Assembly (NCBI GenBank): GCA_043381765.1
Contig: JBHJMP010000434.1
Span: forward strand, 1-38,298
DNA from: Collodictyon triciliatum
Lineage: Eukaryota
Length of the DNA stretch: 38,298 bases
Direction of reading: 5' to 3'
The translations under genes were made by a program, and so were the position numbers. Of this stretch, positions 1,781 to 37,100 are shown one piece after another. Within the stretch, counting starts at the first letter, position 1, and every line of letters begins with the position of its first letter. The notes under the pieces were generated by a model. That model worked only from the letters and a program-made list of their open reading frames with translations, made no database searches and had not been told where the DNA came from.

Positions 1781-7461
<5,681 letters not shown>

Positions 7462-7721
7462 TCCTCCTCTCGCTTCTGCTTGTTTCTTGCTGCGGAAATC
7501 GTGTCCGTGTCGAAGGCCGATGTTCTCCGCACAAAGGTAAGAACAAACCTAATATTCCCAGTTTCTGATAAACGCTGTCCTTTGGTCTGTGGTATTTTTT
7601 GGCCTCTTTCTTGCAACGCGCAAAGACCTCTCTCCGAGTGGTGGGCTTGTTAACAAACAGTCCTCTTCTTCCCACGCCACTCTTGCAAAGGACTAGGATA
7701 ACCTCTGGAATGTGAAATCGG

Positions 7722-7921
7722 AGATGAAGACGAAGACGAGGATGATGATGATGATGATGATGAAGATGATAAAGGTAAAGATAAAGGTAAAGATAAAGAT
7801 ACAGATACAGATACAGATAAAGATAAAGATAAAGATAAAGATAAAGATAAAGATAAAGATAAAGATAAAGATAAAGATAAAGATAAAGATAAAGATAAAG
7901 ATAAAGATAAAGATAAAGATG
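7722..7921. repeat. (GAT)n and (AAGATA)n hexamer microsatellite between DPH5 and XPC
   Basis: Seen directly. Confidence 0.95.
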
Positions 7922-8064
7922 AAAAATGACGATAACAAATATATTACTATAATATTTGATATATAAAGGGATCATGTATTATGTGGATTTGGATAACTTT
8001 GAAGATAGGTCGCATTATCATATTCCTCTCTAGTCGATGGGGTTCTCTTTTCCTTTCTTAAATT

Positions 8065-9991
<1,927 letters not shown>

Positions 9992-15266: not shown

Positions 15267-18200
15267 TCAACAGCCGCGACAAAGGAGGCGTCGTCCATTG
15301 GTTCGTCGTGCTCGCCTTCTGTGTTTGCTGCTGTTGGTGGTGGTTGTTGCCAACGTGTCATTAGGAAAAGAAGGCGTTTTGGTGTCGCACATTCTGAAAA
15401 GAGACCCCAAGATAGAAAGATGAAGAAAAAAAGAAAAAGAAGAGTCATGCTGCTTCCTATTTTTTTGATTTTGTATATTGTCAGATTGTGAGATATATAG
15501 TGAAAACATAAAGTCCATACCATCTGCGCTCTCACCTGGAAGGTCTATTCTGGAGCTCCCTATGTGCATTTTTTTTGTTTAAGTTTGTGGGATAACACAG
15601 GTACATCATGATGACAAAAAAAAAGCAATATTTTATGTTGAAAGATATTATAAGATGATGAATGTTGGCAGTTGTTTCCTTTTTTGCACCTAGTTTCCCA
15701 AGTGATTCGCCCTTCGGCTATGGAGCGAAAGGCAGGTGTGGTATCAGTAAAAAGTTTTTGGGTAGTAGGAGTGATACCTTTTCAAAATAAGAAAAGGATA
15801 ATTAGACTAATGACCCTACATACCTTTTTCCCGTGGTCATCCCTAGTGATTGGTCAAGTTACGAAACAGTTTAGTGATGCATCAAAGAGAAATATTTGTA
15901 CGAGTATCAGTTTTATATATTTCTTGTATTTTTGTATAACTTTCTTTAATAATGCTGTTAAACGAGTGTCCTTTTTTTATTAAAAAAAAACCATAACAAC
16001 AAATCTTGTCGTACTTTGAGCGTTTTGGGTCTACAAGGGAGCGAATATTCAACTTTTCCACAAGTGTTTTAGCTCTACTGACTGACTCATCTGACGGACC
16101 CGGTACCAAGGGCTTCAGGGTGTCTCGAAAGAGGTCTGACTCGCTGGGCTCAAAAATACATATCTGGGCACATGACTTTCCTTTGTATCTAGCCGAGAAG
16201 AGTTGGTACTGTATATATGATACATTATCAACTAAATTCATCTCATTATCGGTTGTATTTTAGGTCAATAAGCGAATCACTAAATGTATAGCGAATAGAT
16301 ATACGTAAATACATAAATAAAACAAACATCGCGGTCTAGTTCGTCGTTGTGTGCGTTTGGTGCCTCTTGTGCGGGTGGTTGGACAGGAAGAGGTGGCGGA
16401 TTGAATGAGGACGAGTTGTTTGCCAGGAGCTTGATTGACTATATTCGTCTAGTTCAGCACGTATGCGTTTTTTCCGTAATATTATTTTTTTTCGAGAGGA
16501 ATCGATGTTTATGATTGGATGCTCAATATTTTTTTAAGATTCTACTCAGATATTGCAATACATATGTAATTAAAGTAGTATATGAGGTATGTATCCGGTT
16601 CCATCATCATACTTACCACCAGGTTGATATCGTATGTCAAAGTACTCATTCTCCTGGGCATGGGGATGGAAGCCTTCAAGTCAGCTTTGCTGCTATCGTC
16701 AATACTCAGCTCTCGGATGAGACCCTGGTCAAAATATTATGAAATTCGATGCATATAGATACGTCGAATCATGTCGTACATAAAAATAGTATATTGTTGA
16801 ATATTACTGGAAGTCTTTTCACTATCGGAGCAAAGGCCATAACTTCAGGCATTCCAGGTCTTTTCGCCGGGTCAAGGACTGTCTCATACGTTCATTAATT
16901 TTTTTAAAAAAAAAAGTGATTTTTTATTAGACTTTGGTATTAATGAGAACGAGGATACTATTGGTATTATGAAAAATTAAATAGTGGCATTTGCTAGTTA
17001 GTGGTATTCAACATGACCATTGCAATACATAATTCATGTCCATAAAAGCTTCGCTATGTTTGTCAAAGGAAACAAACCCAGCATATCAGCGATAGCCTGG
17101 GTTAGTTCCTTGCTATATTGCTTGGGAAGTTTTGCGTATTGCCCCTTAATGACCTTTTTCGCCAGATCCTAGACATGTGTGAACCATTGTGGCCGTTAAG
17201 CGTTATAAAATTAACAGTGTATGGCTTGTTGCCTTCCCATCCATGACGGTTTACAATGATTACCTTAACATTAGCAGCGTCGAATGGGTACTTCAGACAA
17301 GCAATCTCATACAATATGATACCTGCTCATGTATGGCGATTGCGTTGATATTTTCTTGTTCATAAGTTTAAAAATACATCATGCGCTTTTTTTCTGTATC
17401 TCACCTAGGGCCCAAACATCACTTTTGTGGTTGTACTCTTGACTTTGCCAAACTTCTGGGCTCAAATAATACGGTGTTCCTAATTCATTCATTATTTTCA
17501 GGCTAAACGGTGATAGTTGAAAAACGTAAACATAGGTGAGTTCCTTTTCTTTTCTTCTTTTCCTCTCAAACCCACCAATTCTGGTCTTTGCCATTTCCTC
17601 CTTGGATTTCAAAAGGCGGGCCACACCAAAGTCGGCCAACTTTGTCTTTCCGTCTGACATTAGTAGTATATTTGCAGATTTCAAGTCGCGATGTAGGATA
17701 TTTTCAGAATGAAGCACATCCACTGAGAGGGCTATCTTTTGATTGCGATTGGCATTTAGTACACAAAGAGCCATACCGTACATTTAAAGTGGAGAAATAT
17801 TGAATACTTTCTTTTCCTAAAGATGCTAAGAAATGGAAAAATGTATCGAAAGCCACACAGGCAAAAAAGAAAAGAAAAGAAAAGAAAAGAAAAAAATGAG
17901 ATAATATATGTAATTACTTTTTTTTCCTTTAAATATATGTAATTACTTGAATGAAGAGTCTCCAGACGTATTCTTCGTCAAAGTAATTTGATGCCAACTT
18001 TCTCGTCTTGATTTCTGACTCCAAGTCTCCTTTATCAACATATTCCATCGCCTAGTTTGTATTTGTAAAGGACGACTTGAACACAACTTAATGATGGAGC
18101 ATTACATCTTGTTACTGTCTTCTTTACTTTTCTTTTTTCTTTTTTTGAATAGAAATGGTACGATGTGGAGATGTCCATGGTCAACGAAGGACTGGTAATA

Positions 18201-18836: not shown

Positions 18837-18936
18837 NNNNNNNNNNNNNNNNNNNNNNNNNNNNNNNNNNNNNNNNNNNNNNNNNNNNNNNNNNNNNNNN
18901 NNNNNNNNNNNNNNNNNNNNNNNNNNNNNNNNNNNN
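18837..18936. other. Assembly gap (100 N, probably a placeholder of unknown size) next to a poly(T) tract
   Basis: Seen directly. Confidence 0.98.
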
Positions 18937-22811: not shown

Positions 22812-23303
22812 TTCTGTTGATTAATGTCTCCATAAATTGTGTTAACATAAGCATCGCACTAAGCAAAGTGTTGAAACAATGGAATGTTTTTCTCAAAACT
22901 GCCTAATTTTAATATTTTTTTATACTGTTCTAGTTAATTTTTTCTCTACGTAATAGTAATAAATTAACGCATAATTATTTTAACAATTTTACATTTTATA
23001 ACTTATCCTGTCGTAGTGCATTGCAAGATTTTAGCCCAGAGCCTATCGATATGCAGTTCTCTGTTGATTTCTCTATCGAAGTGAGGCCAAACATACGATT
23101 CCCACGGGTTGCTGTAAAGGGGTCTTACACCAAGAGGGATGTTTTTGAGACATTGAGGCGGTTACTAGCTGAAAAGGACAATCATATTGAGCCTTTGTCT
23201 TTACATAATCTATTCGTATTGAAAAGGTTTGTGAATTTGCTGTGTGATTCGAAAATTTCGAGATTGGCTTTTGTTTTATTGAAATGAATAATATGCTTTT
23301 TTT

Positions 23304-23399
<96 letters not shown>

Positions 23400-24326
23400 T
23401 TTTTAATTCTGCTTTCATTTTTGCTTCTCCTTGTTTTCCTCCTCTCACTTTTCATAGCCCATACGAGCAACAGAAGGAGATAGTCATGATGGAGGATGTT
23501 GCTACGCTTTCATCACTCAGAGTGATGCCAGGATACAATATAATGCTTAAAGGCGAGGTAAAGCTTAAAAGGTAGGGATATACGAATACACCACGAATAT
23601 TTCCTAGATTACTCTCTGTGAGCAGGCAGCTGTTTAACATTTTATTTATCAGTTATATTTATCACATGGTTACTTCTTGATTGTATTATCGGCTCCAATT
23701 TCATTAAATTTATTGTTATCTTGAAAATATTTTTTTATATGGATACATTGTGACCAATTTTAAATTATCTTAGTGATATCCCGAAGGCTTGCCTGTTGGA
23801 GACGTGGAAAAAAGGAGATAAAACAAATTATTACCAATGCATACCATGCGGTATAAAATGTAAGTATGACTAAATGTATATGTATAGAGAGAGAGATTTA
23901 TGGTGCGCATTTATTTATTTATTTTTTCTAAATATTAAATTAAATGATAAAACGTATGCGCTAGGGATTTGTACAAACTGTCTGACATCCTGCCACAGTG
24001 GTATGTCTCCCTACGAGATGAAATCCGACATTTTCATAAATTAATGTGCTTTAATTTTAATTTTAATTTTATTTCTCCTCTACGTTTACATATATATTAT
24101 TCGCATAAGAGACTTAAAAATGAGAGACACTGATTGGAAAAAAAAAATAGAGGTATATTTATGAATGCACATAATCCGGATAGGCCACCAAACAGTCTTA
24201 TTCCTGTCTCAACACACGCCCAACTACGCGTGCTGCTATTGCCCGCGCAAAAAGTGTATGATTCCCTGCAAGGACAAAGGCCCGTCAGCCGCTTCACCAT
24301 CGCAGGCATCGTCGTCCTCATCATAA
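21076..24326 (+). CDS. RING (C3HC4) E3-ligase-like protein with coiled coil, possible ubiquitin-like domain and C-terminal UBR-box-like zinc finger
   Basis: MSDSLRLRVE|VDPILEEFNCPICY...CGHNFCQQC...|KLTCPCC; helical, charged middle exons; FSIEVRPNIRFPRVAVKGSYTKRDVFETLRRLL...TLSSLRVMPGYNIMLKG; YYQCIPCGIK|WICTNCLTSCHS|GHQTVLFLSQHTPNYACCYCPRKKC. TAA is at 24324-24326. Confidence 0.85.
23300..23400. repeat. (TTTC)n microsatellite in an intron of the RING gene
   Basis: Seen directly. Confidence 0.95.
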
Positions 24327-24552
24327 GCCAACGTGGCATCACCCCCAACCTTACTTTCACACAAACTCAATGCACAAGATAAAAGAGAAAAGGAGAGAAT
24401 GAGAAGCAGAGCTGGACAGAGACCAGTGCAGTTCACTGTCTGTCTAATTATTTATTGCCAACCCTCTGCGAAGGTTTATGAGGGGAAGGAAGGGAGGGAG
24501 ACGAGTAATACACAGCGAGAACAAGGAGAACAAGGAGATGGGGAAGGAAAGG

Positions 24553-26577
24553 TCAGAGGGCGTCGCGCTCTGCAGCGAGGGCGTCGGCAATGACGAGGAG
24601 TGCGGCGCGGACGTGGGAGATGGGGAGGTCGAAGGGGGCGGAGGCGAGGGTCTCGTGGTCGAAGGCGACAAAGTCCCTGCCGGCGACGTCGTTGTCGCGG
24701 ACGGCAGCCACGAGGGTGTGGTGGAGGCCCTTGTCGTGGAGGAAGTCGGCCAGCTGGTCGCAGGTCATGGCGCGGAGGGGCGTGTGGCTGTGGTCGTGGC
24801 TGTGGTCGTGGCTGCTGTGGCTGTGGCTGCTGTGGTCGGCGGCGGGGCGCAGGCGGGGGTCGGGGTCGGGGTTGTCGGCCAGGTCTGCGAGGCGCGGGGC
24901 GAGGTCGAGGGCGGTGGGCCTGCGGTGGGGGTCGGGGTGGCAGCAGTCGCGGATGATTGCGGCGAGGCGCGGGGGGCAGCGCGGGGGGCAGGGCAGGGGC
25001 CGGGCGGCGGTCTTGTGGGCCATGATTGCCGAGAGGGCCAGGCCGTCGTAGGGGCGCGAGCCGGTCAGCATGGCCCACAGGACGCAGCCGAACGAGTACA
25101 TGTCGCTGCTGGGCCCGCACGTGCGGAAGTCGAAGGCCTCCGGGGCGACGTAGTGGTACGTGCCGGCAAAGCCCGTGGTGCGCGAGACGGTGTGGCGCGC
25201 CGTGGCCATGCCGAAGTCGGCCAGCTTGGCCACGCCGCCGGCGCACACCAGGATGTTTTCCGGCTTGAGGTCGCGGTGCTCGATGGGCGGCGTGCGCGCG
25301 TGCAGGAAGGCCAGCGCCGCGTTGACGTGCCCCGCGTACAGACCCGCCAGGCCCAGCGGCAGCGCGCCGATCGCGTCCAGCAGCCCCTGCACGCTGCCGC
25401 CCTCCGCGTACTCCAGCACGTACAGCACGCGCCGCTCCTTGAAGCCGTACGCGTGCAGCCGGATGATGTGCTCGTGCGTCAGGCCCAGCAGCAGCCGCGC
25501 CTCCCGCGTCAGCTCCTCGTACTCGGCCGTCCCCGGCCGCGTCTCCTTCTTGGGCACCTTCACCGCCACACGCCCCCGCCGCACCTCCACCACATACACC
25601 TCCCCGAACGCCCCCTCCCCGATCTTGTCCTCCGCCCCAAACGCCGTCGTCAGCACGTCCACGTACTCCCCCTCCACGCCCTCGTGGAACTCCACTGCAG
25701 CATGCCGGGCGGCTCCGCGTTAGTCGGCCGTGGTATTTGCTCTGGGGCCATGCCCGTATGTGGAACGTAAACGGCTTGGGGAAAGGGTTTGTGGATCGAG
25801 TCACTCACGCGGCGCAACATCCACTGCAATCGACGTCCGCGATCCGGTCCGGCTCAGCTGCTGGCTGCTCTCTGCATCCGCCGCCGTCTGTGTTGGGGCA
25901 GAGAGAGAGAGAGAGTCGGTGAGTGCGTCTGTGTGTGGCATGCCCTCCGGCGGTTCAGTCATGCCGGATTGGGAGGTGGGGGTGGGGGCACGACACGCAC
26001 CGCGTAGTAGAGCTCCAGGCGTCGCAGGGAGTGCGCAACTACAATCTCGCCGTGCTTCTCCAGGCAGTGCCAGCAAGGCAGCGTCGTGATCCCCGTCGGT
26101 GCGCGCTTCAGCCCAAACTTGCCCCCAGTCTCTGCCACAAGCATCTTCAGCTCCGTCAGCAGTGGCAGCCACTCTGGTAGCTCCTCAATCTTATTTCATC
26201 AACAAAAAAAAAAAGTGGCAAAAGTTTGTAAGAAAATAATCTGCTAGCCACGCCTCCTTTTTCTCACTCACTAATTCTCTACTATTTTTTCTTTTTCTCT
26301 CTGTTGCAAAAGAAAACTGTGCTTGTGTACGTACCAAGTTCTTGTTGATGTTCAGGAACGTCAGGTGGAGCAGGACAGACATGTGGTGCGGCAGGAAGTT
26401 CAGCTGGTTGTTTTCCAGAGACAGGTGGAGCAGGGTGGTCAGTGAGCCCAGCCCTTGGGGGACCGTCTTCAGTCCACGCCCGTTCAGCTCCAGCTGTGTA
26501 CAGTTCAGCAACGACGACGCGGGCGAGTACGTCGGCTTCAGTGCCTTCAGATCTTTGATCTTGAACTCTGACGACAT
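24553..26577 (-). CDS. LRR-protein kinase (TKL-like)-SAM protein, copy A, 550 aa; exons 26335-26577, 26001-26189, 25809-25887, 24553-25694
   Basis: Three 23-aa LRRs plus one degenerate repeat. The kinase has IGEGAFGEVY, VAVK, HRDLKPEN, DFG, GTYHYVAPE, SDMYSFG and RRPT. A His/Ser linker is followed by the SAM-like MTCDQLADFLHDKGL...VRDNDVAGRDFVAFDHETL. GT-AG introns have phases 0,0,1, with a branch-like GACTAAC in intron 3. Confidence 0.9.
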
Positions 26578-28048
26578 GTCTGTGTGTATATTGGTTCTTT
26601 TTTTTTTTTGTTCGGAGCCCTCTTCTGAGTCTTTCCTTGGCTCCCTTGTTGCTCTCCTTGTTCGAGTGCAAGTCCGTGCGCTTCTGCTTCGGCAGTGCTA
26701 CCTCCTGCTAGGGCGTGAGAGTGCTAGGGAATGTGTGTGGGGAGGCGTTGTTTAGTGAGGCAAAGCACTTTGTTTTCTTTTTTTTTCTTCTCCTAGTTAT
26801 GTGAGCTCTCGTTCCCGTGTGCGGGGAAGAGTTGTAGGCTAGTAAGTATTGGCAGTGTTTCTTGAGGGTTTTCCACATTCTTGATTGATCTTTGCAGCCT
26901 CGCAATGTCGTTAGAAGGGCGAGTTTGCTCCGCATGATTGTCTCTCATTGCTTCACAAGCTATGAAGCGAGGGCTGGATTCCAAAATGTCCCTGACGCGA
27001 GGGAGAATTCATGATTGAGATGAAAACAACGGATCGAAATTCGGCCTTATATTCTCCTGTTTGCCTTGCGCTAAGGGCGGCCAAAGAAGTTGTGGATGTT
27101 TTGTGTTGAAACGGAGATCGACTACCTCACACAAGCGCCACTGCCATAAACGTGCGGGAAATCGGCCTGTCGTCTCTAGTCGGCAATCTTGTACGTTTGT
27201 GGAAAACGAAACAGCTGCTTTTTCAATGGAAGTTTTGGCATACTCGAACGTTCCTTTACTTAACCAGAAAGCCAGACACAACACCCACAACAACTCAGCA
27301 ACTCTAATCATCCTTTTGCAAGCAAAACATGTGGATTATGTAGAGTTTTTTCCCTCCCACAAGTCGATTAGGACTATCGAATGAGGCACTTTGACATTTT
27401 CTGATTCTCGTTTGAAAGGAAAAGAGCCACACAGGTGTTTCAAAGAACGAGACCCGAATCAGAAGTTGCACGTGAAGGTTCTAGAAGACTGATGGAACTT
27501 TCGATTTCAAATGTGGAACAGAAAATTCGCGGCAACTTTGGTCCACATTAGTGGAAATTCAATGAAAGGACCAGCAATTAAAGAAAAATCTCTGTCCGTC
27601 TCCTTCTGGAATTATATTTGTGCGAAAGACGGTATAAAAGCGCATTCATTCCTTGTATTTTTTTACCACCCATCTTAGCCACGTCACAGCGAAGGTTAGC
27701 GGAACGAGCTCGGTGCAGGGGGATTGATTGTGATCGGTTCGTGAAGGCCAACCAAACCCAACGTCTCTAAGCAGGAGCAAAGGATCAACTTCACAGACAA
27801 CGACACAACAAACCTCTGCAGCACAAGAGCCATCCGACAGACTGTACGCCTGGCCAACAAAACAAAGCCATAAGGCACAACACCGCTTCTGCCACACCTT
27901 TTTGTCCACAAACAAATCTCCCTCTCGCTGTGCCTTCAATCACACAGCTCTTCAAGATTCTAACGAATAAATCTTCCCATCTTCAAGGAACACGCTGCGG
28001 AGAATCAGCCACTAGTAAACCAAAGAGCCTAGACACTCGAAACTCAGA
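26578..28048. promoter_or_regulatory. Shared 1.47-kb upstream region of the divergent LRR-kinase pair (candidate bidirectional promoter)
   Basis: Lies between the two start codons. No convincing coding sequence was found, and no specific motifs were identified. Confidence 0.45.
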
Positions 28049-30257
28049 ATGGGGGCCAACCAGTCACTCAAAGGGTTGTCGTCAGAACAGAAAGAGCAGT
28101 TCAGGCTGCTCAAGAAACTGGACCCGGGATTCTACCCCGACGACCAACCGCTGATAAAAACCTCACAACTTTGCCTTAACAACAAGAACCTACGCACTGT
28201 CCCACCCGGGATCTCCCTTCTCACAAACATGAACGCCCTGTGGCTAGAACAGAACCACCTCTCCAGTCTCACAACGACAATCACCTGCCTCACAACACTC
28301 ACCATGCTCCGCATTTTCAACAACAAATTTTCGGAAGTGCCCAGCCAGATCTCATTCCTGACTGACCTCCAGCACCTGTTTCTTAACGTCAACTCAATCA
28401 GCTACTTCCCTGAGTGGTTCACGACGCTAACCAAGCTGTGCCATCTCTCTGCGGAGTCCAATAACCTCTCATGCGTCCCTCCTCAAGTCTCTGTCCTCAC
28501 CAAGCTGACTTACTTAAATATACACAGCAATCCGGTAATCATTACTATTACTTTCTCTCTGCTTCTCTGTTTTCATTTGGAAGTTATTCCCAACTCGATC
28601 TTCACCCAACCCCAATCATCCATAGATGGAGGATCTGCCCGACTGGATTGTAATGTTCAAGCAACTAAAAGTCCTGCTTGTAGAAAGCCTTGGCAAAGTC
28701 AACGTCAAACACCTGCCCCGCCCGATCTCAACGCTCCCATGCTGGACCAACAGAGATAAATACAGCGGTATAATTGTGGCTGAATCCCTTCAGAAACTCA
28801 ACCTCCGCGACATGGTAAGCTGGACTCCTTTCTCTCATGCTTTAGTTTCAGTACTTGCATAGACACGCGCCTCACCGGGTTCTTTTTTTCTGGCTCTTTA
28901 CTCCAGTATGAGTCCATGGAAGAGCTCGAAGAAAAATACAGGCCCCCTGTGACCATTTCTGTGAATCCCTCCCTGCTGAGTAGCAGCATCAGCCTCTACA
29001 CACCGTCGGGAGCCTTAAGATCCTTTGCAGATTTTATTCCTGATAACGGTATGTCGAGCTCACCTTCCTATAAAACTTCACTCTCCGTCTGGCAGAGAAC
29101 CTTTCACTTGACTCTTGGCGAACCACATGAACATAGACCTAACCCAAATATATCTCTCATGTAAACTAGGTGAAAATGACGAACCGGTTGTAGGAGACTA
29201 CGCAGACGTCATGTATGCAGATTTCAACGAAACAAACAAGCTCGGGGAGGGAGGCTTCGGAGATGCCTACAAGGTCCAACTGCAAAAAGGCGTTGTTGCA
29301 GTAAAGGTCCTGAAGAAGGAGACCAAGCCAAAGACACCCGAATATGAGGAGCTCACCCGAGAGGCTCGCCTCATGATCCAGCTCGACCACGTGAACATCA
29401 TTGGGATGTATGGCTACGGGTGTAGAGCAAGGAAAGTCCTATATGTCATGGAATATGCCGACGGCAAGAGCATCGAAGACCTCATTAAGGCCGGCGGCCC
29501 GCTCCCATTCGACAAGCTCATGCTGTACACAATCCAAATTAATGCTGGCCTAGAGTATCTGCACAGCCGAAATCCGCCTGTGGAGCACCGCGATCTGAAG
29601 CCCGAAAACGTCCTTTTGTGCGGTGGTGTGGCCAAGATATGCGACTTTGGGCTTTCCACAGCGCGCGAGACTGTGTCCCGCGCCACCCAGTTTGCCGGCA
29701 CCTACCACTACGTGACTCCAGAGTCCTTCGACATGAAAGCCTACGGGCCCATGAGCGACATCTACACATTCGGCCTCGTCATCTGGTCCATGCTGACTGG
29801 CTCGCGCCCGTACGATGGCATGACCTTGCCGCAAATCATGGCCCAGAAGACCAAGAAGAAGACGCCGGAAATACCGCCCACTTGCTCAGCCAAGCTCGCT
29901 ATGCTCTTAAAGAATTGTTGGGAGCTTGACCCTCGTCAGCGCCCCACGGCTGCACAGCTGACTCCGAGGCTGGAAGAAATCCAGAGAGACCCTGGCCCAT
30001 CGGTAGGGCAGCAGCCACGGTCCGTGGTTGGGATGAGCAATGCCGACCTGGTGGTCTATCTGACCGAGAAGCGTGTTTATCCTTCCTTTGTTGCAGCCGT
30101 CAAAGACAGCGGGGTGAGCGGCACAGACTTCTTGGCATTCACAGAGGAAGACTTACTCAGCTCCCCGTTCCTACTCTCAAAGTTCCAAGCCAAGTTTGTT
30201 CTGAAGCTCATCAACGAAGCAAAAGAGGTTGCGAATGAATCATCCGATCAGGGGTAA
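28049..30257 (+). CDS. LRR-protein kinase (TKL-like)-SAM protein, copy B, 634 aa; exons 28049-28534, 28626-28814, 28907-29048, 29170-30257
   Basis: MGANQS start (G2, S6); six 23-aa LRRs plus one degenerate repeat. The kinase has FNETNKLGEGGFGDAYK, VAVK, HRDLKPEN, DFG, GTYHYVTPE, SDIYTFG and QRPT. The SAM-like tail reads MSNADLVVYLTEK...VKDSGVSGTDFLAFTEEDL...VLKLI. Intron phases are 0,0,1. Confidence 0.92.
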
Positions 30258-30882
30258 GGTTCTCACGCCTTTTTTTTCTTCCTTTCCGTTTCATTCGGTC
30301 TTCGCATTCACTTTAGGCTAATAAGCCATTTTTTAAGTGCCTTACCTTCTCATATACAATCTGTACCAATGCAACATTCTTGTTATTTGTCGAAGGATAA
30401 TAAGCACTTTGGTAAACTGTGTTCTCACTTTTTTTCTACCGCGCGTTCGACAGTGACAAGGAGTAAAGGTCGTATCTCCAAAACAAACACCCACGAATCC
30501 AGTCTATAGTAAGTTGAACCCCGTAAAGGCCCCGTTATCATCATCATCTTTTCTTTTCTTCATCCCATCATACTCCTGCAAAACAAACACTCCAAAGCCA
30601 CCACACTTTCTCTCATTCTTCGTCCCTTGATGATTATTCGTACACAGCAGAATAAAGCCTACCAGCCCAGTACCCACAGCCTTGTCCTGTTGTGTTTTGT
30701 CTCTTTGCGCACCAATCGAAGTTTGAGAAGAGAAAGAAAAAACCAACGCCTCTATCCTGTCCTTCTCCTTTGTGTTCTCCTTATTCTTGGCCTCCTCTCT
30801 GTCGCGAACAAAGGATCAGGCTGTCTCGTCCAGGCCACGGCGAATAATTGCGACTTCATACCCACACAAGCCCCAAGACAGG

Positions 30883-33547
30883 ATGTTGGGCAAAAGAGTG
30901 AGTCTTCTCTCTGTCTGTGTCTGTGTCTGTGTCTGTGTCTGTGTGTGCCGCTTGCGATCGGACTGGGCTGCGAGCCCGAGACATCCTCCTTTTCCCAACG
31001 CACGCGGAGTCGCCAAACCCGAACCCAGATGCGAAGGCGACGCAGCAAAGAAATTATTTACACAAAGCTCTTTCTCTTTTTCTCTCTTTTTTCTCTCTTT
31101 TTTCTCTCTTTTTTCTCTCTTTTTTCTCTCTTTTTTCTCTCTTTTTTCTCTCTTTTTTCTCTCTTTTTTCTCTCTTTTTTCTCCCTTTTTCCCCTTTTTC
31201 CCCTTTTTTTTTCTCTTTTTCTGAGACAGAACTTGGCGAAAGAAAGCTACCACGGGAAGGCAGAGCAGATGGAGCCACACGGACGCGGTGCGAGTGGGGG
31301 TGTCTCTGTTGCAGTTCTATCCACGCCGACTGCGGTGCATGACATCAACGACGCAAACGAAAGCCGATCTGAGGCGGCAAAGCAGCGCAGGAAGCTGGAG
31401 GGCATTCGCCAACTCACAAGGCTCCAGGGAATGAACGTGAAGGTATCTGCAACACTCACGCACGTCACAACCGACCTGCATGATGGCGCCCTGCGAAATC
31501 GAAGAATCTCAAAACTGATGGAAACCAACGGGGAATTCGTTTGTGCATTCATTTACCTCTGTGTTTATTTATTTATCTATTTGTTTGTCTATTTGTTTTG
31601 TTTGTTTGTTTGTTTGTCTGTTTGTTTATCTATTTGTTTGTTTTGTTTTATTCGTCTGTGAATCGAACGACGTTGGACTCGATTGCAATTTGCTCAGCAA
31701 CAATCAACTTCCGAATAGCATAGCAAACCAAGTGAATAATACAATCAACTTGTAGTTGGACTCTAGCTTTGATGCTGCAGACCAGGACATCACGACAGAG
31801 TTTGCTCGAGTATCCCATTTCATAAACACCCTGGAATCGACCCTCATCGAACAGGTCTTGTTGAGATAACTATATATATCCATAAAAAAAAAAAGAAAAG
31901 AAAAAGAGGAAGATAAATCTATTTCTTTGTCCGCGCGCCTTCCTCCCATTATGTATGTGATGCTCATATGCATTTCCCTACTCAAAAATCTAGTGCAAGA
32001 GCATGCGCCACCGACTCAACAAAAGCTCCAACATGGACGAGCAGATATACCTCATCCACATGACACGATTGCGATACATGTCGGCACACGCACAAAGGAG
32101 CATCCAAACTATGACAGGAATCGAGCGTAAAATCGAAAAATCACAGCCCTTCTGTGTACAGACGCGCAGCCAAGTCCGCCACAGCGGGCCAGCATCAGAG
32201 CCCAAACGCTCGAAAAACACACCTCCCGAGACGGCTGCGCCCATCGGAGAAGCCCCGCTGGAAACGCCTTCTACGCCCACTACACCGAAACTCTTCCATC
32301 TTGCTCATCTTTGTACTATTGTCACACAAGTCTCCACTTCTCCCGTCCCCGCAATGACATCACGCTCTATTGCATCCTTTCAACACACCCAGCATCAGTC
32401 GCAGATTCCGCAATCACAGAGCCTCAAAAGCAGTGCTCATCTCCACAACCATCGTCCCCACCCCAATCATCCTTGTCACTCATCAGAGCAGCAGCAAACA
32501 GTGGACGAGATTCGGCTTCTGCTCTCTCGCAAAGTGAACAACCCCATCCGCATCGCGCTGCCCGATGTGCTTCAGCTCAACACTCTCCACCAACAAATGG
32601 ACCTCCTTCCTTTTATCTTCCTTGGGCGAGACTTTATTCCTCGACCAATGGGTTTACGCACGCTTGGAAGGCAACGACCCAGCCAGACAATCCAGCTGCC
32701 TCCAGACCAGCTCATGAGCCACGGCAGCATCTGCATCCACCCAAAGACCCACGAGATTCTTGTGCCAAATGCAACGCGCGGTGTGATTCTGTCCATCAGC
32801 CCATTCAGTGGCGAGAATGGCCTTTCAAGCATGATGAATCCTGTAGCTGCAGCCGCTGTTGCTGTTTGGGCTCCACTTCCGAGAGCCACCTGCAGTCAGA
32901 TTGCATTACCCACGCGCATGTGCATCTCCAACGATGGCCACTTCCTCGCTGTGGTAGACTCTGCCTCGCGATGCGTACATGTTTACGACTTTGTGTCCCG
33001 CCAAGTCTCTCACTCTATTCACGTGCATGAGAGACCGAGTGACTCGTTTCATCAGACGCCGGTGGATGTTGCCTTCGACTCGGAAAACAATCTGTATGTA
33101 GCATCCCCATCTGCCTGCGCGATATTCAAGTACGACCCTTACGGTTTGTTTCTGATGCGATTAAGCGGGGTGGAAAACAGGGCGTGTGTCGGAAATGCTG
33201 CGAGTGTCTTGGTCAACGATACAGACGAGATTGCAACTGTGATGGCGCATGGCAATCGGCTCAAAGTCTGGAGCAGCGAAGGTAAATTCTGCAGGTCATT
33301 TTTTGTGCCACCAACACTGCCGGATAATGCCCTTGGTCGTGGGTGGAATGGCGGAATACTTCTGGCAGACTCGTGGAATAATGTTGTTTATCATGTCTCT
33401 CGTGATGGTGCGGTGGAGCGGCTTCTCGAGGTGGCCCATCCCCGGGCTGCTGCGGTGGATTCACACGGCTTTCTCTTTGTGCTGCACGACGTGCATCCGA
33501 TGCTTTCTGTCTGGGCCGGTGGATTCGATGCAGATTTCATGCAATAG
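30883..33547 (+). CDS. Coiled-coil + NHL-repeat (beta-propeller) protein; exons 30883-30897, 31230-31538, 31756-31854, 31994-33547
   Basis: Phase-0 junctions throughout. C-terminal blades: LPTRMCISNDGHFLAVVDSASRCVHVYD, PVDVAFDSENNLYVASPSACAIFKYDPYG, GNRLKVWSSEGKFCRSF, GGILLADSWNNVVYHVSRDG, HPRAAAVDSHGFLFV. The 15-nt first exon (MLGKR) is tentative; an alternative start is at 31269. Confidence 0.82.
31070..31221. repeat. (TTTTTTCTCTC)n pyrimidine minisatellite in NHL gene intron 1, with a (TGTCTG)n tract nearby at ~30912-30945
   Basis: Seen directly. Confidence 0.9.
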
Positions 33548-34116: not shown

Positions 34117-37100
34117 TCACGGGAGAAAGAATCGAGAGCGCTGACGGCCATTGATGGAGACTTTTGTTGGCTGTGTTCTATGCTGGTTGCTTTTTGATGA
34201 AGATATAGTTGCAATGTTTTCGGGCAAATCTTGAATCTGACTGGACTTGCTGGACCTGCTGGACCGCCGGTAATCCGCGCTACTGCTAGGATTAATGTAT
34301 TGGTAAGTGGGTTAAATCACATGAAACAAACACCAATCAGCATAACCATTTTTTATACTATATGCTTCTTATCCTCCAGCCTATAAAAGTCACCGTTTTT
34401 TGGGGGGAGACCTACTATATGTTTACCTAGTTTGTGAAAAGGGACTGGGTAAGCGCAGCGGCTTCTCTGAATCCTTGTTTTTTGATGAAGTGTGAATCTC
34501 CGGTGTTGATGGATACCGCGGCTTTGGAAGTGACACTATCAAAGGGACTGCCGGACGAATGAATTGAGCCTGGTGAGAGGGAAATAGAACCTTGCGAGTA
34601 TCACTCTCAGCTGACAAACGTGAAGCTGCCGGACTTGATGTGGCAAATGTCTTTGATGAATGTGGGCTGTGTTGCGCACTCTGACGCGAGTCACCTTCTG
34701 TCGGATTTTTTGCATAAAGTGCTCTTTGATTCTGTGATTGCGTATGCATTTGAGTATTCGAATGGGGGCGCTGGGGAGAGTGTAAGTGAGATGTGTTTGT
34801 GTCATCATTATTTGATTCGACCATTAGGCTCGGGTGACTCGAGTGGAATCTCGGTGAATCGCGAGTTACATGTGAGTAAAAAGAGGCTGATGAAAACGAG
34901 CTTTGTCGAGAATGGCTTATTGGCCGTATCTGATCTTTCAGTAAAAATCCTCTGGTTTGTGCATCGCGACCGACACCTTCATATTCCACTGCTTCGTCGC
35001 TAATTTTTTTCGTTTCGTGGGACGCAGCCTCATCTTGGTGTTCTGAGGAGACAATAAATTTATCCCCATCTAGAACCAGGATTTGTTGGATATTTGAACC
35101 ACTCATTTGAGTGCCTCCTTCGTTAAATGATTCGTCATTTTCACTTCCATCTTCACGTCTATATCCATCTTCACCGTCGAACTCACCAGACTCTCCATCT
35201 ACTTCATCTTCAAACTCTTGCTCATCTTCAAGCCCTTCTTCGTAGTATTCGTCACTGTCATCGCCATATTCTTCTTCAAATTCTTCTGAATTTGATCTCG
35301 TCTGTGGTCGTGACGCGATTCTCAAAAGAGGAACAGAAAGAGGACCGGGAAGTGGAGCAAGGGGACCATCAGCTTCGGGCTCATCTCCAAAAAGTGACCA
35401 TTCTTCGTCGCTCAGGGTAGGCTCTTGATATTTCTTGAGCTGGGCCTCAACTCTCTTTTCAGGGGACTTTGTTTGTGACCGACGTTTGTGGTACCGTAAT
35501 GCAATTCTTTTCCATTTATTGCGCTCCTGCTTCTCTTGGTCTCGTTTCTTTTCAGACGAAGCGAGTTGGAGCCGCAAGCTCTATGTTGATAAAAGTTGAA
35601 GAATTTAAATAAATGATGAGAGGTTACATTCAGGTACCAGGCCATTATGTAACCTTGAATAGTCATAGCGGGATAAGCATTACAATTTACATAAAATGTT
35701 GTTGAGATACATGAGTTAAATGCTATTACTTCCTTCTTTTTCTCTTTTCTTTCTTTTTTATTTATAAATTGAAAAAAAATTACTTACTTTTGCTTGCTGT
35801 TCTAATTGTTGATATAGCACATTTAATTCGGATAGCCCACGGTCTCTCATCTCCCTCTCAATTAACTGTACTCTATCCAAAACATATTAGCATGCTTACA
35901 AGAAGTAGGATGAATCTTTATTTTCGAATGCTGATAGGAAAATAAAATGGTCTTCCTTACAAAAAATAAAGTGGACAAAATGAATATCAACCCAATATGA
36001 GGTAAAGTGTTTACAATAAAAATGTCGTATATCATGAAAAGATATCATTTTTATGATCATATTACCGTCGTTGCTTTGCAGCTGTCGAGTATGTATTTAG
36101 TTCGTTTACAACAAGGTCTCTGTCGATTTTCTTGAAATGATATTCATTAGAGAGGCCTTCGAAGGAGGCATGGGCAAGGCGAAAAGAGAAGAAAAAACTC
36201 ACTTATGAATTTGTAAAATAAAATGCGTAGTGGAAAAATGAGAGAATTTTACTAATTTGTTGGATTCCAACTGCAGATTCCGCTGTTTCACTAATAGTGT
36301 TTTGATTTGGCGTTCTTGTTCAATCAGTCGTTGCTTGAGAATGTGATTTTCTGTGACTGCTGTGCTGACTTCATCTTCTACATCCTGGAGAACTTTGCTT
36401 TTGATTTCGTGCTTCGCTTGCCCGAGTGTCTTTCGGAAGACCTTACCATCCAAAAAAAAATAATTTGATTTTGCACATTATCTTCAAAATGACCTCTTTA
36501 AAGTGAACCAAACTATGAAAAAATTTCAATGAAGAGATTTTGTTAAAGACAAAGTCAGTAAACCATATATATTAACATATTTCAGTCAATGAACAACAAA
36601 GCCCCAACTAAAAAGAAAACTATCGTAATTACCCTGGATAATTCAATTTGTTCCTGAAGATTTTTGTTCATCACTTGGCTGAGATGGACTCTGTGCTTTT
36701 CCAAAATATCAATTCGCTGATTCTTCAAACTGAATAGCTTATCTGATAATTGGTTTGCTTCTTCGTCAGCTTTTTTCTGTTACAATAGAATGATTTAGAC
36801 GATTGTTAATCTTGGAAGTATTGGAGAAAAAAAGTAAGATTAGTTCATTTGTGAATCACTTGGTAATAATCGATTTCGTCATGAAGAAGCTCGCTCTCGA
36901 GTTTTAAGTTTCGTATCTATATAAAAAAAAACCCACGAATAATCTGTTAGAATAGTTAATAGCGTTATATGAAAAAAAAAGTAGAAATAAAAGCGCCAAC
37001 AGAATGTGCTTCATCATCACCATCGAATTGCGTCATTATTTTAAAAAAAATTATCAAATAGGAGCGAAAAACGATAGTAATCACAAAATGAGAGAAATAT

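What the first reader, a model, noticed from the sequence alone, without database searches (positions are those of the whole stretch)
24553..30257. Head-to-head pair of paralogous cytosolic LRR-kinase-SAM genes: candidate paired receptor/immune signalling system
Seen: two genes are transcribed divergently from a 1.47-kb spacer. Each has 4 exons, intron phases 0,0,1, an exon 2 of 189 nt (IEELPEW...TLPCW vs MEDLPDW...TLPCW) and the order LRR - kinase - SAM. The kinases are roughly half identical by eye and share unusual signatures (EYEELTREARL, EHRDLKPEN, FAGTYHYV, MLTGSRPYDG); all catalytic motifs are intact in both. I see no signal peptide, TM helix or Roc/COR GTPase. Known: divergently paired receptors (plant sensor/helper NLR pairs such as RPS4/RRS1) are co-regulated, SAM domains drive head-to-tail oligomerisation, and the kinase entry FNETNKLGEGGFG resembles IRAK/Pelle/RLK kinases. 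Inference: an old inverted duplication retained as a two-part intracellular sensor, in which LRR binding triggers SAM-mediated hetero-oligomerisation and trans-phosphorylation. I do not recognise this architecture as a named family.
Basis: partly seen in the sequence, partly recalled or inferred. Interest (0 to 1): 0.85.

Follow-up and report, generated by a model that had tools for sequence, protein, structure and literature searches.

The report
Divergent pair of LRR-kinase-SAM genes
Two neighbouring, oppositely oriented protist genes are expressed duplicates of an unnamed signalling-kinase family that joins a leucine-rich-repeat binding module, a MAP3K-like kinase and a SAM oligomerisation domain; nothing yet shows that they act as a paired immune receptor.

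Summary
Gene A (minus strand, 550 aa) and gene B (plus strand, 634-637 aa) diverge from a 1471-nt spacer. They share intron phases 0,0,1 and a 189-nt exon 2, and are 42% identical (E 3e-155). RNA contigs confirm all six predicted introns, and both genes are present in the same runs.

The C-terminal tails get no Pfam SAM hit, but AlphaFold models of both tails are five-helix bundles whose nearest solved folds are almost all SAM domains. The kinases are TKL. The nearest solved kinases are CTR1, MLK, TAK1, RIPK4, ZAK and Roco4, not IRAK or plant RLK. B's LRR is closest to SHOC2.

B, and a Diphylleia rotans relative, start with a myristoylation-type MGxxxS/T motif. The only relatives sharing kinase plus tail are Diphylleia rotans transcripts and three environmental fragments.

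A and B are sisters (support 93/95), so the duplication is lineage-specific. A evolves about 4.7 times faster, has GC3 of 0.96, has lost N-terminal LRRs and carries a His-rich linker.

Best reading: an inverted tandem duplicate of a new LRR-MAP3K-like-SAM architecture. The paired immune-sensor idea is untested. Verdict: new variant of a known kind, moderate interest.

The parts
26335..26577 (-). Gene A exon 1 (81 codons, starts MSSEFK; about 2.5 LRRs)
   Evidence: Gene model. An in-frame stop lies upstream at 26698-26700. RNA contig X2 record 13 is continuous over 26335-26725 and is spliced to exon 2.
26001..26189 (-). Gene A exon 2 (189 nt; last irregular LRRs plus the conserved TLPCW cap motif)
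   Evidence: The joints 26189|26335 and 25887|26001 are seen in X2.
25809..25887 (-). Gene A exon 3 (79 nt linker, ends in phase 1)
   Evidence: The joint 25694|25811 in X2 has two letters between its sides, which places the exon end at 25809.
24553..25694 (-). Gene A exon 4: kinase (about 24904-25632), His-rich repeat linker (about 24781-24837), SAM-fold tail (about 24559-24762), stop at 24553-24555
   Evidence: Pfam Pkinase E 9.6e-49. AF2 tail model: pLDDT 81.9, five helices. The best Foldseek rows are mostly SAM domains.
24437..24552 (-). Gene A 3' UTR, ending at a poly(A) site near 24437
   Evidence: X1 record 1 covers 24437-25261 and has a run of T as a loose end before 24437.
26578..28048 (.). 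1471-nt spacer between the two start codons; largely transcribed
   Evidence: Contigs cover 26497-27239 in X1. There is no contig cover over 27405-27858.
28049..28534 (+). Gene B exon 1 (162 codons): MGANQS myristoylation-type start (28049-28069), then about 5.5 LRRs
   Evidence: Pfam LRR_14, LRR_4 and LRR_8, E 1e-11 to 8e-10. The nearest solved LRR is SHOC2, E 1.7e-44. Motif test.
28626..28814 (+). Gene B exon 2 (189 nt; last LRRs plus the TLPCW cap motif)
   Evidence: The joint 28534|28626 is seen in X1 and the joint 28814|28907 in X5.
28907..29048 (+). Gene B exon 3 (142 nt linker, ends in phase 1)
   Evidence: The joint 29048|29170 is seen in X5.
29170..30253 (+). Gene B exon 4: kinase (about 29226-29960) and SAM-fold tail (about 30039-30239)
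   Evidence: Pfam Pkinase E 6.7e-55. AF2 tail model: pLDDT 86.3, five helices. The Foldseek rows listed are almost all SAM domains.
30454..30466 (+). Gene B exon 5, coding part (completes a Gly codon, then D K E and the stop)
   Evidence: The joint 30253|30454 (GT..AG) is seen in X1 and X2. Translation.
26302..27239 (+). Spliced plus-strand transcript antisense to gene A exon 1 (pieces 26302-26526 and 26797-27239; intron 26527-26796)
   Evidence: X1 joint 26526|26797 has GT..AG on the + strand only, with side 30 letters and depth 3.1. The donor GTACGT and a pyrimidine-rich acceptor are read.

Best explanation
A and B are two expressed paralogues made by an inverted tandem duplication within this organism's lineage. 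They belong to a small, unnamed family with this architecture:
- in some members, an N-myristoylation-type start;
- a SHOC2-like intracellular LRR with a conserved LPCW cap;
- a short variable linker;
- a TKL Ser/Thr kinase of MLK/RAF-like (MAP3K-like) type;
- a C-terminal SAM-fold domain.

Likely mechanism (inferred): the LRR binds a protein partner at or near a membrane. Head-to-tail association of the SAM domains then brings kinase domains together for trans-autophosphorylation, as shown for the kinase-SAM MAP3K ZAK.

The copies have diverged asymmetrically. B is conservative, myristoylatable and has about 7 LRRs. A evolves about 4.7 times faster, has GC3 of 0.96, about 4 LRRs, no myristoylation motif and a His-rich linker, but keeps all catalytic motifs and the SAM fold.

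The head-to-head layout is most simply the footprint of the duplication. A hetero-pair function is possible but not shown.

Shown here: gene structure, paralogy, expression and splicing, domain content, narrow distribution, sister relation, rate asymmetry.
Inferred: membrane anchoring, LRR ligand, SAM oligomerisation, trans-phosphorylation.
For: - Gene models and 42% identity, E 3e-155.
- Six of six predicted introns are confirmed by spliced contigs. A has a poly(A) end. Both genes are present in X1 and in X2.
- Pkinase in both genes; LRR in B.
- Nearest solved kinases are CTR1, MLK1/4, RIPK4, TAK1, ZAK and Roco4.
- Nearest solved LRRs are SHOC2, LRRD1 and RSU1.
- Tail models have pLDDT 86.3 and 81.9 with five helices. 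The best Foldseek rows are SAM domains, with target-normalised TM 0.7-0.87 and rmsd 1.4-2.4 A.
- Six of 11 weak profile hits in the PDB are SAM domains.
- The nearest Atlas clusters are SAM, at 0.76 and 0.75, which counts as a lead only.
- Of the best 150 representatives, 5 match kinase plus tail in one stretch: 2 Diphylleia rotans transcripts and 3 environmental fragments.
- P0270 and P0126 have LRR plus kinase, and P0270 also has an SH3.
- B and P0270 both pass the N-terminal myristoylation pattern.
- A+B are sisters at 93/95. End branches are 0.99 (A) against 0.21 (B).
- A departs at 15 of 83 otherwise invariant family positions and B at 4 of 72, and A's changes are mostly conservative.
- ZAK precedent for SAM head-to-tail dimerisation licensing kinase activation: PMC12823453, passages read.
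Against: - Pfam SAM models do not hit either tail. No Foldseek match reaches E 0.001. The SAM assignment therefore rests on predicted structure from a 7-row alignment.
- The kinase class comes from the ranking of solved chains, not from a phylogeny with curated TKL references.
- Myristoylation is a motif match only.
- No ligand, substrate or oligomer was shown.
- A+B sisterhood is not starred, the AU p-values of 0.03 are marginal, and A's odd composition (flagged) can distort branch lengths and placement.
- Family size and neighbour orientation in this genome are unknown, because no assembly is held.
Confidence: 0.6

Rival explanations
1. Paired two-part intracellular sensor. A and B are co-regulated from a shared bidirectional promoter and act only together. 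LRR binding in one triggers SAM-mediated A:B hetero-oligomerisation and trans-phosphorylation, in an immune-type role analogous to sensor/helper NLR pairs.
For: - Head-to-head order with a 1471-nt spacer.
- Both transcripts are present in the same two runs, X1 and X2.
- Both keep the SAM fold and the catalytic motifs.
- Asymmetric evolution, with A fast and B slow, recalls a sensor/helper split.
- Head-to-head paralogue pairs whose products co-assemble exist, for example the COL4 genes (PMC12141075, search listing and abstract start only).
Against: - No immune-type domain (TIR, NB-ARC, death, decoy) was found.
- Presence in the same runs is not co-regulation.
- The spacer is itself transcribed, and a plus-strand spliced RNA overlaps A's first exon. 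This fits interference as well as sharing.
- The A+B duplication is lineage-specific, and the two Diphylleia LRR-kinase-SAM genes are not their one-to-one counterparts.
- Conservation of the pairing is untested.
Confidence: 0.1
2. A is a derived soluble modulator of B, or a copy under relaxed constraint. After duplication A lost the myristoylation start and about three N-terminal LRRs, and it drifted under regional GC-biased conversion. It now either titrates B or B's partners through its SAM or LRR, or it has an unrelated new role.
For: - A is 84 residues shorter, starts MSSEFK and has an in-frame stop upstream of its ATG.
- End branch 0.99 against 0.21.
- 15 of 83 departures at invariant positions, against 4 of 72 for B.
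- GC3 is 0.96 in exon 4, and introns 2 and 3 are also GC-rich (0.65, 0.61). That points to a regional process and not to codon selection.
- The His-rich repeat linker and a 12-nt in-frame indel vary between strains.
Against: - A keeps every catalytic motif, and its departures are mostly conservative.
- A is spliced, polyadenylated and expressed.
- Between strains, A's coding part shows 3 listed substitutions in about 700 nt, against 27 in 438 nt of spacer (X1 records 1 and 4; table 3, where 29 further rows were not shown). Of the 4 coding changes I could score in A (3 from table 3 and one read from the letters at a splice joint), 3 were synonymous.
Confidence: 0.15
3. Antisense-coupled pair. 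B's transcription unit, or a non-coding RNA, starts inside gene A and runs antisense across A's first exon. The layout would then enforce reciprocal expression instead of joint expression.
For: - The X1 joint 26526|26797 has GT..AG only on the + strand.
- The same contig path keeps A's intron 1 sequence (26302-26334) unspliced.
- A good donor and a pyrimidine-rich acceptor are present.
Against: - The evidence is one run, depth 3.1, with a side of 30 letters. That equals the overlap of assembly-graph contigs.
- No contig links this RNA to B's coding exons, and 27405-27858 is uncovered.
- The library strand is unknown.
- Both mRNAs occur in the same runs.
Confidence: 0.1

Closest known systems
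ZAK / MLTK (MAP3K20) and the MLK-type TKL MAP3Ks
   Same: - The kinase domain is among the nearest solved chains (ZAK E 1.4e-32 for B alone and 2.6e-43 for the family profile; MLK1/4 and TAK1 rank higher).
- A SAM domain lies C-terminal to the kinase.
- In ZAK, head-to-tail SAM dimerisation on a scaffold licenses kinase activation (PMC12823453, passages). This is the mechanism I infer here.
   Different: - ZAK has a leucine zipper and ribosome-binding regions and no LRR.
- Here an N-terminal SHOC2-like LRR and, in B, a myristoylation-type start precede the kinase.
- The tails are not recognised by the Pfam SAM models.
- No orthology is shown.
ROCO / LRRK kinases (LRRK1/2, Dictyostelium Roco4, GbpC, Pats1)
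   Same: - Intracellular LRR of the same repeat style lies N-terminal to a TKL kinase.
- Roco4 is among the nearest solved kinases (E 1.7e-31 for B alone and 2e-42 for the family profile).
   Different: The defining Roc GTPase and COR domains are absent. Only about 50-65 residues separate the LRR and the kinase, with no Pfam hit. ROCO proteins have no C-terminal SAM.
SHOC2-MRAS-PP1C / RAF module
   Same: - B's LRR is most similar to SHOC2 among solved chains (E 1.7e-44, 5 stretches; the E-value is inflated by repeats).
- The kinase is nearest to the Raf-like CTR1.
- The fusion resembles a scaffold-plus-MAP3K joined in one chain. This is my inference.
   Different: SHOC2 is a separate protein of about 20 LRRs, while here there are about 4-7 LRRs fused to the kinase. 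No GTPase or phosphatase partner is known.
Plant LRR-RLKs and animal IRAK/Pelle
   Same: LRR plus a TKL-group kinase. Plant RLK-like proteins appear among sequence hits at about 30-36% identity.
   Different: - No signal peptide or TM helix, so the LRR is not extracellular.
- No death domain.
- No IRAK or RLK kinase is among the best 60 solved chains.
Paired head-to-head NLRs (RPS4/RRS1 type; recalled, not searched)
   Same: Divergent orientation of two paralogous LRR-containing genes with asymmetric divergence.
   Different: There is no NB-ARC, TIR or CC domain and no integrated decoy. No interaction is shown, and conservation of the pairing is untested.
Eph receptors and Acanthamoeba SAM-containing kinases
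   Same: Kinase followed by a C-terminal SAM. Eph kinases appear in the family-profile ranking. Six Acanthamoeba tyrosine kinases carry SAM (PMC4053784, passage).
   Different: Those are tyrosine kinases, and the Ephs are transmembrane. Here the catalytic loop is HRDLKPEN (Ser/Thr type, from recall), with no TM helix and with an LRR.

Membership tests
Protein kinase superfamily, TKL group (MLK/RAF-like) | Complete eukaryotic protein kinase domain with catalytic motifs | tested here: met
   Pkinase E 6.7e-55 (B) and 9.6e-49 (A). The G-loop, VAVK, HRDLKPEN, DFG and xPE motifs are read in both translations.
Protein kinase superfamily, TKL group (MLK/RAF-like) | Kinase domain groups with MLK/RAF-like TKLs in a phylogeny with curated references | tested here: inconclusive
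   Only a ranking of solved chains was available. CTR1, MLK1/4, RIPK4, TAK1, ZAK and Roco4 lead. No curated TKL reference set was on hand.
SAM domain | Five-helix bundle of about 70 residues with SAM topology | tested here: met
   AF2 models of both tails have five helices, with domain pLDDT above 90. The best Foldseek rows are SAM domains (PHC3, Ph, Scm, SAMD1, L3MBTL3, Shank, CNK2, SARM1), with target-normalised TM up to 0.87. This is predicted structure only.
SAM domain | Match to the Pfam SAM_1 / SAM_2 sequence models | tested here: not met
   0 families for either tail at E up to 10. The PDB profile search gives only weak SAM hits, E 0.03-1.1.
SAM domain | Self-association or hetero-association | not testable with these tools
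   This needs purified domains (SEC-MALS, co-IP).
ROCO / LRRK | Roc GTPase and COR domains between the LRR and the kinase | tested here: not met
   No Pfam hit. The linker is only about 50-65 residues.
LRR-RLK / RLK-Pelle-IRAK | Signal peptide plus TM helix with an extracellular LRR (RLK), or a death domain (IRAK/Pelle) | tested here: not met
   Maximum hydropathy is 1.57 and 1.16, against 2.95 in the TM control P0274. No death domain.
Paired sensor/helper immune receptors | Head-to-head paralogues | tested here: met
Paired sensor/helper immune receptors | Immune signalling domains (NB-ARC, TIR, CC) or an integrated decoy | tested here: not met
Paired sensor/helper immune receptors | Physical and genetic interdependence of the two products; pairing conserved in relatives | not testable with these tools
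   No genome is held. The metagenome scan gave only generic kinases.
Intracellular SHOC2/RSU1-type LRR | Tandem repeats of about 23 residues, LxxLxxLxLxxNxLxxLP, without a signal peptide | tested here: met
   Pfam LRR_14, LRR_4 and LRR_8 in B. SHOC2, LRRD1 and RSU1 are the best solved matches. The repeat pattern matches 5 times in B and 2 times in A. A's exon 1 alone has no Pfam hit.
N-myristoylated proteins | M-G-x-x-x-S/T type N-terminus (PROSITE-style pattern, recalled) | tested here: met
   B (MGANQS) and Diphylleia P0270 (MGQSQS) match. A and P0126 do not. The modification itself was not tested.

The most novel reading that the evidence does not exclude
A and B form an obligate hetero-oligomeric signalling pair. 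Membrane-anchored, slowly evolving B would act as the executor. Fast-evolving, soluble A would act as the specificity or sensor subunit, recruited through SAM-SAM contacts. Expression of the two would be coupled through a partly overlapping divergent transcription unit. This would be a kinase-based analogue of paired NLRs in a deep-branching protist lineage.
Probability: 0.1. Interest if true: 0.7.

Novelty: new variant of a known kind. Interest (0 to 1): 0.4.

Why it matters
LRR, TKL kinase and SAM are all common signalling parts. This order, without a Roc-COR GTPase or a membrane span, is not a named family in anything I could search.

Its only detectable relatives are Diphylleia rotans transcripts and a few environmental fragments, so it comes from a poorly sampled part of the eukaryote tree.

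It adds a case of independent assembly of LRR-kinase signalling proteins. It also offers a compact natural fusion of a SHOC2-like scaffold with a MAP3K-like kinase and an oligomerisation domain, which could serve as a simple model for proximity-activated MAP3Ks.

The asymmetrically diverged head-to-head duplicate, with one copy at GC3 0.96, is also a clean case for studying GC-biased evolution after duplication.

Tried and rejected
- **Complex prediction on the two SAM tails:** score 0.27 against a mark of 0.34. No verdict, so it is not used either way.
- **Whole genome of the window:** not held, so no family census or neighbour-orientation count was possible.
- **The search for related loci in metagenome contigs:** the patterns chosen were generic kinase motifs. 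The 80 loci kept of 554 are 27-38% identical generic kinases and were not examined further. This gave no test of conserved pairing.
- **The search for homologous proteins:**
  - Search for longer proteins with B exon 4: only generic or multi-kinase proteins at 25-38% identity.
  - Profile of kinase plus tail: of the 120 listed, only P0123, P0129 and P0202 (which carry the tail) and P0275 and P0277 (kinase only) are family kin.
  - Profile of the tail alone: 4 hits, all of them input sequences.
- **Pfam on the tails:** no SAM hit.
- **Rfam on the whole window:** 0 matches.
- **Gene-conversion idea:** a 232-nt inverted DNA match of 75% (25009-25240 against 29621-29852), and raised third-position identity at 29679-29849 (27 of 35 sites, permutation p 0.002). 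This loses significance once B's local GC3 is allowed for (p 0.12). Left open.
- **Strain variants:** A has 3 synonymous and 1 non-synonymous change; B has 3 and 3. This is too few to conclude anything, and 29 further rows were not shown.
- **RNA cover:** the uncovered part 27405-27858 and the small contig pieces at 25247-25285 in X3 and X5 (conserved-motif matches with loose ends on both sides) carry no claim.
- **Paper searches for the architecture:** no paper in the held library describes LRR-kinase-SAM. Supplementary domain tables of the kinome papers (PMC3019232, PMC1420674, PMC4053784) were not seen and could list such combinations.

Full report
**What is there.** The window is eukaryotic DNA, AT-rich between genes, with two assembly gaps at 4094-4759 and 18837-18936.

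Gene models read from stop-to-stop frames and GT..AG borders:

| Gene | Strand | Exons | Length |
|---|---|---|---|
| B | + | 28049-28534, 28626-28814, 28907-29048, 29170-30257 | 634 aa |
| A | - | 26577-26335, 26189-26001, 25887-25809, 25694-24553 | 550 aa |

Intron phases are 0,0,1 in both genes, and exon 2 is 189 nt in both. The two start codons lie 1471 nt apart. blastp of A against B gives 42% identity over 551 columns, E 3e-155. The kinase parts are 55% identical over 273 columns. No other paralogue lies in the window; tblastn finds only an unrelated NEK-like kinase exon at 17379-17783.

**Expression and splicing.** One search of public runs found nine that hold parts of the stretch. I laid four of them, all kept as assembled contigs.
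- Spliced contigs confirm all three introns of A (X2: 26189|26335, 25887|26001, 25694|25809).
- They also confirm all three predicted introns of B (X1: 28534|28626; X5: 28814|28907 and 29048|29170).
- An X1 contig runs from A's coding region to 24437 and then into a run of T. This marks a poly(A) end and a 116-nt 3' UTR.
- X1 and X2 each hold contigs of both genes. X3 and X5 are labelled as freshwater and aquaculture metatranscriptomes, and they hold pieces with no differing letters.
- A new finding: in X1 and X2 a further GT..AG intron, 30254-30453, removes B's TAA. The protein then ends ...QGDKE with its stop at 30464-30466. B therefore has five exons.
- Contigs show presence, not level, so nothing is said about co-regulation.

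**Domains.**
- Pfam finds a complete kinase domain in both genes (E 6.7e-55 and 9.6e-49).
- Pfam finds LRR only in B exon 1. A's shorter N-terminus aligns to B's last LRRs and matches an LRR pattern twice, against five times in B.
- Among solved chains, B's LRR is closest to SHOC2, then LRRD1, bacterial LRR proteins and RSU1. This is the intracellular LRR class.
- Neither protein has a TM-like stretch (maximum hydropathy 1.57 and 1.16, against 2.95 in a TM control).
- The LRR-kinase linker of about 50-65 residues leaves no room for Roc-COR.
- B begins MGANQS, and the longest Diphylleia relative (P0270) begins MGQSQS. Both fit the N-myristoylation pattern, which I recall from PROSITE. A and P0126 do not fit.

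**The SAM question.** Pfam gives nothing for either tail, even at E up to 10.

I aligned seven tails: A, B and five relatives. The alignment shows a conserved pattern, and a profile built from it hits 11 PDB sequences weakly (E 0.03-1.1). Six of the 11 are SAM domains.

AlphaFold models built on this alignment give five-helix bundles for B (pLDDT 86.3) and for A (pLDDT 81.9, with a low-confidence His-rich linker in front).

Foldseek against the PDB returns SAM domains in almost every row listed: PHC3, polyhomeotic, Scm, SAMD1, L3MBTL3, Shank, CNK2 and SARM1. Target-normalised TM reaches 0.87 and rmsd is 1.4-2.4 A. No match reaches E 0.001, which is usual for so small a domain. The nearest ESM-Atlas clusters are also SAM, at scores of 0.76 and 0.75, which is only a lead.

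I accept a SAM fold for both tails, on predicted structure.

**Kinase class.** For B alone, and for a family profile, the best solved kinases are:
- CTR1 (Raf-like)
- MLK1 and MLK4
- RIPK4
- TAK1
- ZAK/MLT
- Roco4

Tyrosine kinases follow. In both lists a 678-residue chain named EGFR, matched in two stretches, stands first; I set it aside. No IRAK or plant RLK kinase is in either list of 60. The kinases are thus TKL, with a MAP3K-like flavour. The suggested IRAK/Pelle/RLK likeness is not the closest.

**Relatives.** An exhaustive HMMER search of 1.84 billion representatives lists its best 150. Only five of these match kinase plus tail in one stretch, at 44-58% identity:
- two transcripts labelled Diphylleia rotans in EukProt: P0123 (its longer isoform is P0270) and P0126;
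- three short environmental fragments: P0129, P0138 and P0202.

P0270 has the order LRR - SH3 - kinase - tail, and P0126 has LRR - kinase - tail. The LPCW cap motif is shared. Diphylleia kinases of the same clade without the tail include an FG-GAP transmembrane receptor kinase, P0274.

Word-based searches with the family profile and with the tail profile added no further tail-bearing members. The window's own proteins are not in the collections. The family is narrow in public data and, as far as five paper searches show, undescribed.

For context, LRR-plus-TKL combinations have arisen repeatedly in protists (PMC3019232, passages). ROCO kinases are defined by Roc and COR (PMC1420674, passages). 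Some Acanthamoeba kinases carry SAM (PMC4053784, passage).

**History of the pair.**
- In a 24-row kinase tree the family forms a clade (93/96), and A+B are sisters (88/61).
- With kinase plus tail and 10 rows, A+B has support 93/95.
- AU tests disfavour B+P0123 (p 0.032), B+P0138 (p 0.032) and A+P0126 (p 0.005). A+B+P0138 is not rejected (p 0.14).
- The duplication therefore happened in this lineage, after it split from the sampled Diphylleia genes, but it is old. The path between A and B is 1.2 changes per column.

Divergence is strongly asymmetric:
- End branches are 0.99 for A and 0.21 for B.
- A departs at 15 of 83 positions that are invariant in the other family members; B departs at 4 of 72. 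A's changes are mostly conservative.
- GC3 in exon 4 is 0.96 for A and 0.67 for B, against 0.34-0.55 in four other coding stretches of the window.
- A's introns 2 and 3 are also GC-rich (0.65 and 0.61), while its intron 1 is 0.33. This points to a regional process such as GC-biased conversion, not to codon selection.

A nonetheless looks constrained. Against the X1 strain, its coding region shows 3 listed substitutions in about 700 nt, while the spacer shows 27 in 438 nt. The table was truncated, with 29 rows not shown.

**How it most likely works.**
- Shown: two active-looking, expressed LRR - TKL kinase - SAM-fold proteins, one of them with a myristoylation-type start.
- Inferred: B sits at a membrane. 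The LRR binds a protein partner, and the SHOC2 likeness suggests a small GTPase or a phosphatase complex. SAM-SAM association then brings kinase domains together for trans-autophosphorylation.
- The closest solved precedent is ZAK, a kinase-SAM MAP3K. Its head-to-tail SAM dimer, formed on a scaffold, licenses activation (PMC12823453, passages).
Its specific claims of an A:B hetero-pair and an immune role have no support yet.
- The head-to-head order is what an inverted tandem duplication leaves behind.

**An odd extra.** In X1 a contig path joins 26526 to 26797. GT..AG is present only on the plus strand, with a GTACGT donor and a long pyrimidine tract before the acceptor. The same path keeps A's intron 1 sequence unspliced. 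This suggests a spliced plus-strand RNA antisense to A's first exon, possibly a long 5' leader of B. The evidence is thin: one run, depth 3.1, a 30-letter side, and no link to B's exons. If real, the two transcription units overlap, which bears on how they are regulated.

**Verdict.** This is a new variant of a known kind: a domain shuffle within TKL signalling kinases, in an under-sampled protist lineage, present as an asymmetrically diverged inverted duplicate. Interest is moderate.

Noticed in passing
window 26302-27239 (+): A contig path in run X1 joins 26526 to 26797, with GT..AG only on the plus strand, and keeps gene A's intron 1 sequence. This looks like a spliced RNA antisense to A's first exon, possibly B's 5' leader. 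A loose end at 27234 looks, from recall, like a template-switch oligo of a SMART-type cDNA library.
   Followed up: partly
window 30254-30466 (+): B has an extra 200-nt intron that removes the annotated TAA and adds three codons (D K E) from a fifth exon. It is seen in two runs.
   Followed up: yes
window 24553-26000 (-): Gene A's exon 4 has GC3 of 0.96, and its introns 2 and 3 are 0.61-0.65 GC. The surrounding window is 0.28-0.45 GC, and other coding stretches have GC3 of 0.34-0.55. This is a regional GC shift after the duplication, and its cause is unknown.
   Followed up: partly
window 24781-24837 and 24967 (-): A His/Ser/Asp-rich repeat linker (HSSHSHSSHDHSHDHSH) lies between A's kinase and SAM. 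The repeat, and a 12-nt in-frame indel in a PCPPRCPPR stretch, differ between the window and the RNA contigs of X1 and X2. Insertions of 18 nt occur in the 3' UTR.
   Followed up: partly
window 25009-25240 vs 29621-29852: A 232-nt inverted DNA match of 75% lies between the two kinase exons. Synonymous-site identity is locally raised at 29679-29849, where B's GC3 also rises to 0.83-0.87. This may be an old conversion tract, or merely composition (p 0.002 falls to 0.12 when conditioned on composition).
   Followed up: partly
window 17379-17783 (-), 8829-9176 (-), 31994-33547 (+), 34423-35580 (-): Other likely coding pieces: a NEK-like kinase exon (Pkinase E 1e-23); a weak tetrapyrrole-methylase-family hit (E 8e-4, below Pfam's cut-off) that by eye looks like diphthine synthase; an NHL/SGL beta-propeller-like ORF (NHL just above its Pfam cut-off, SGL below); and a long acidic ORF without a Pfam hit.
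   Followed up: no
P0274 (Diphylleia rotans transcript): The same kinase clade in Diphylleia includes a transmembrane receptor kinase with five FG-GAP repeats outside the membrane and no SAM tail. One kinase lineage is thus combined with quite different sensor modules.
   Followed up: partly
window 3900-5000, 7040-7950, 9560-9830, 23290-23400, 30990-31230: There are many long simple-sequence tracts (ATT/TAT, CT/GA, TTTC-type). They read as poly-I/Y/L/S frames in the ORF list. One flanks the 666-N gap at 4094-4759.
   Followed up: no
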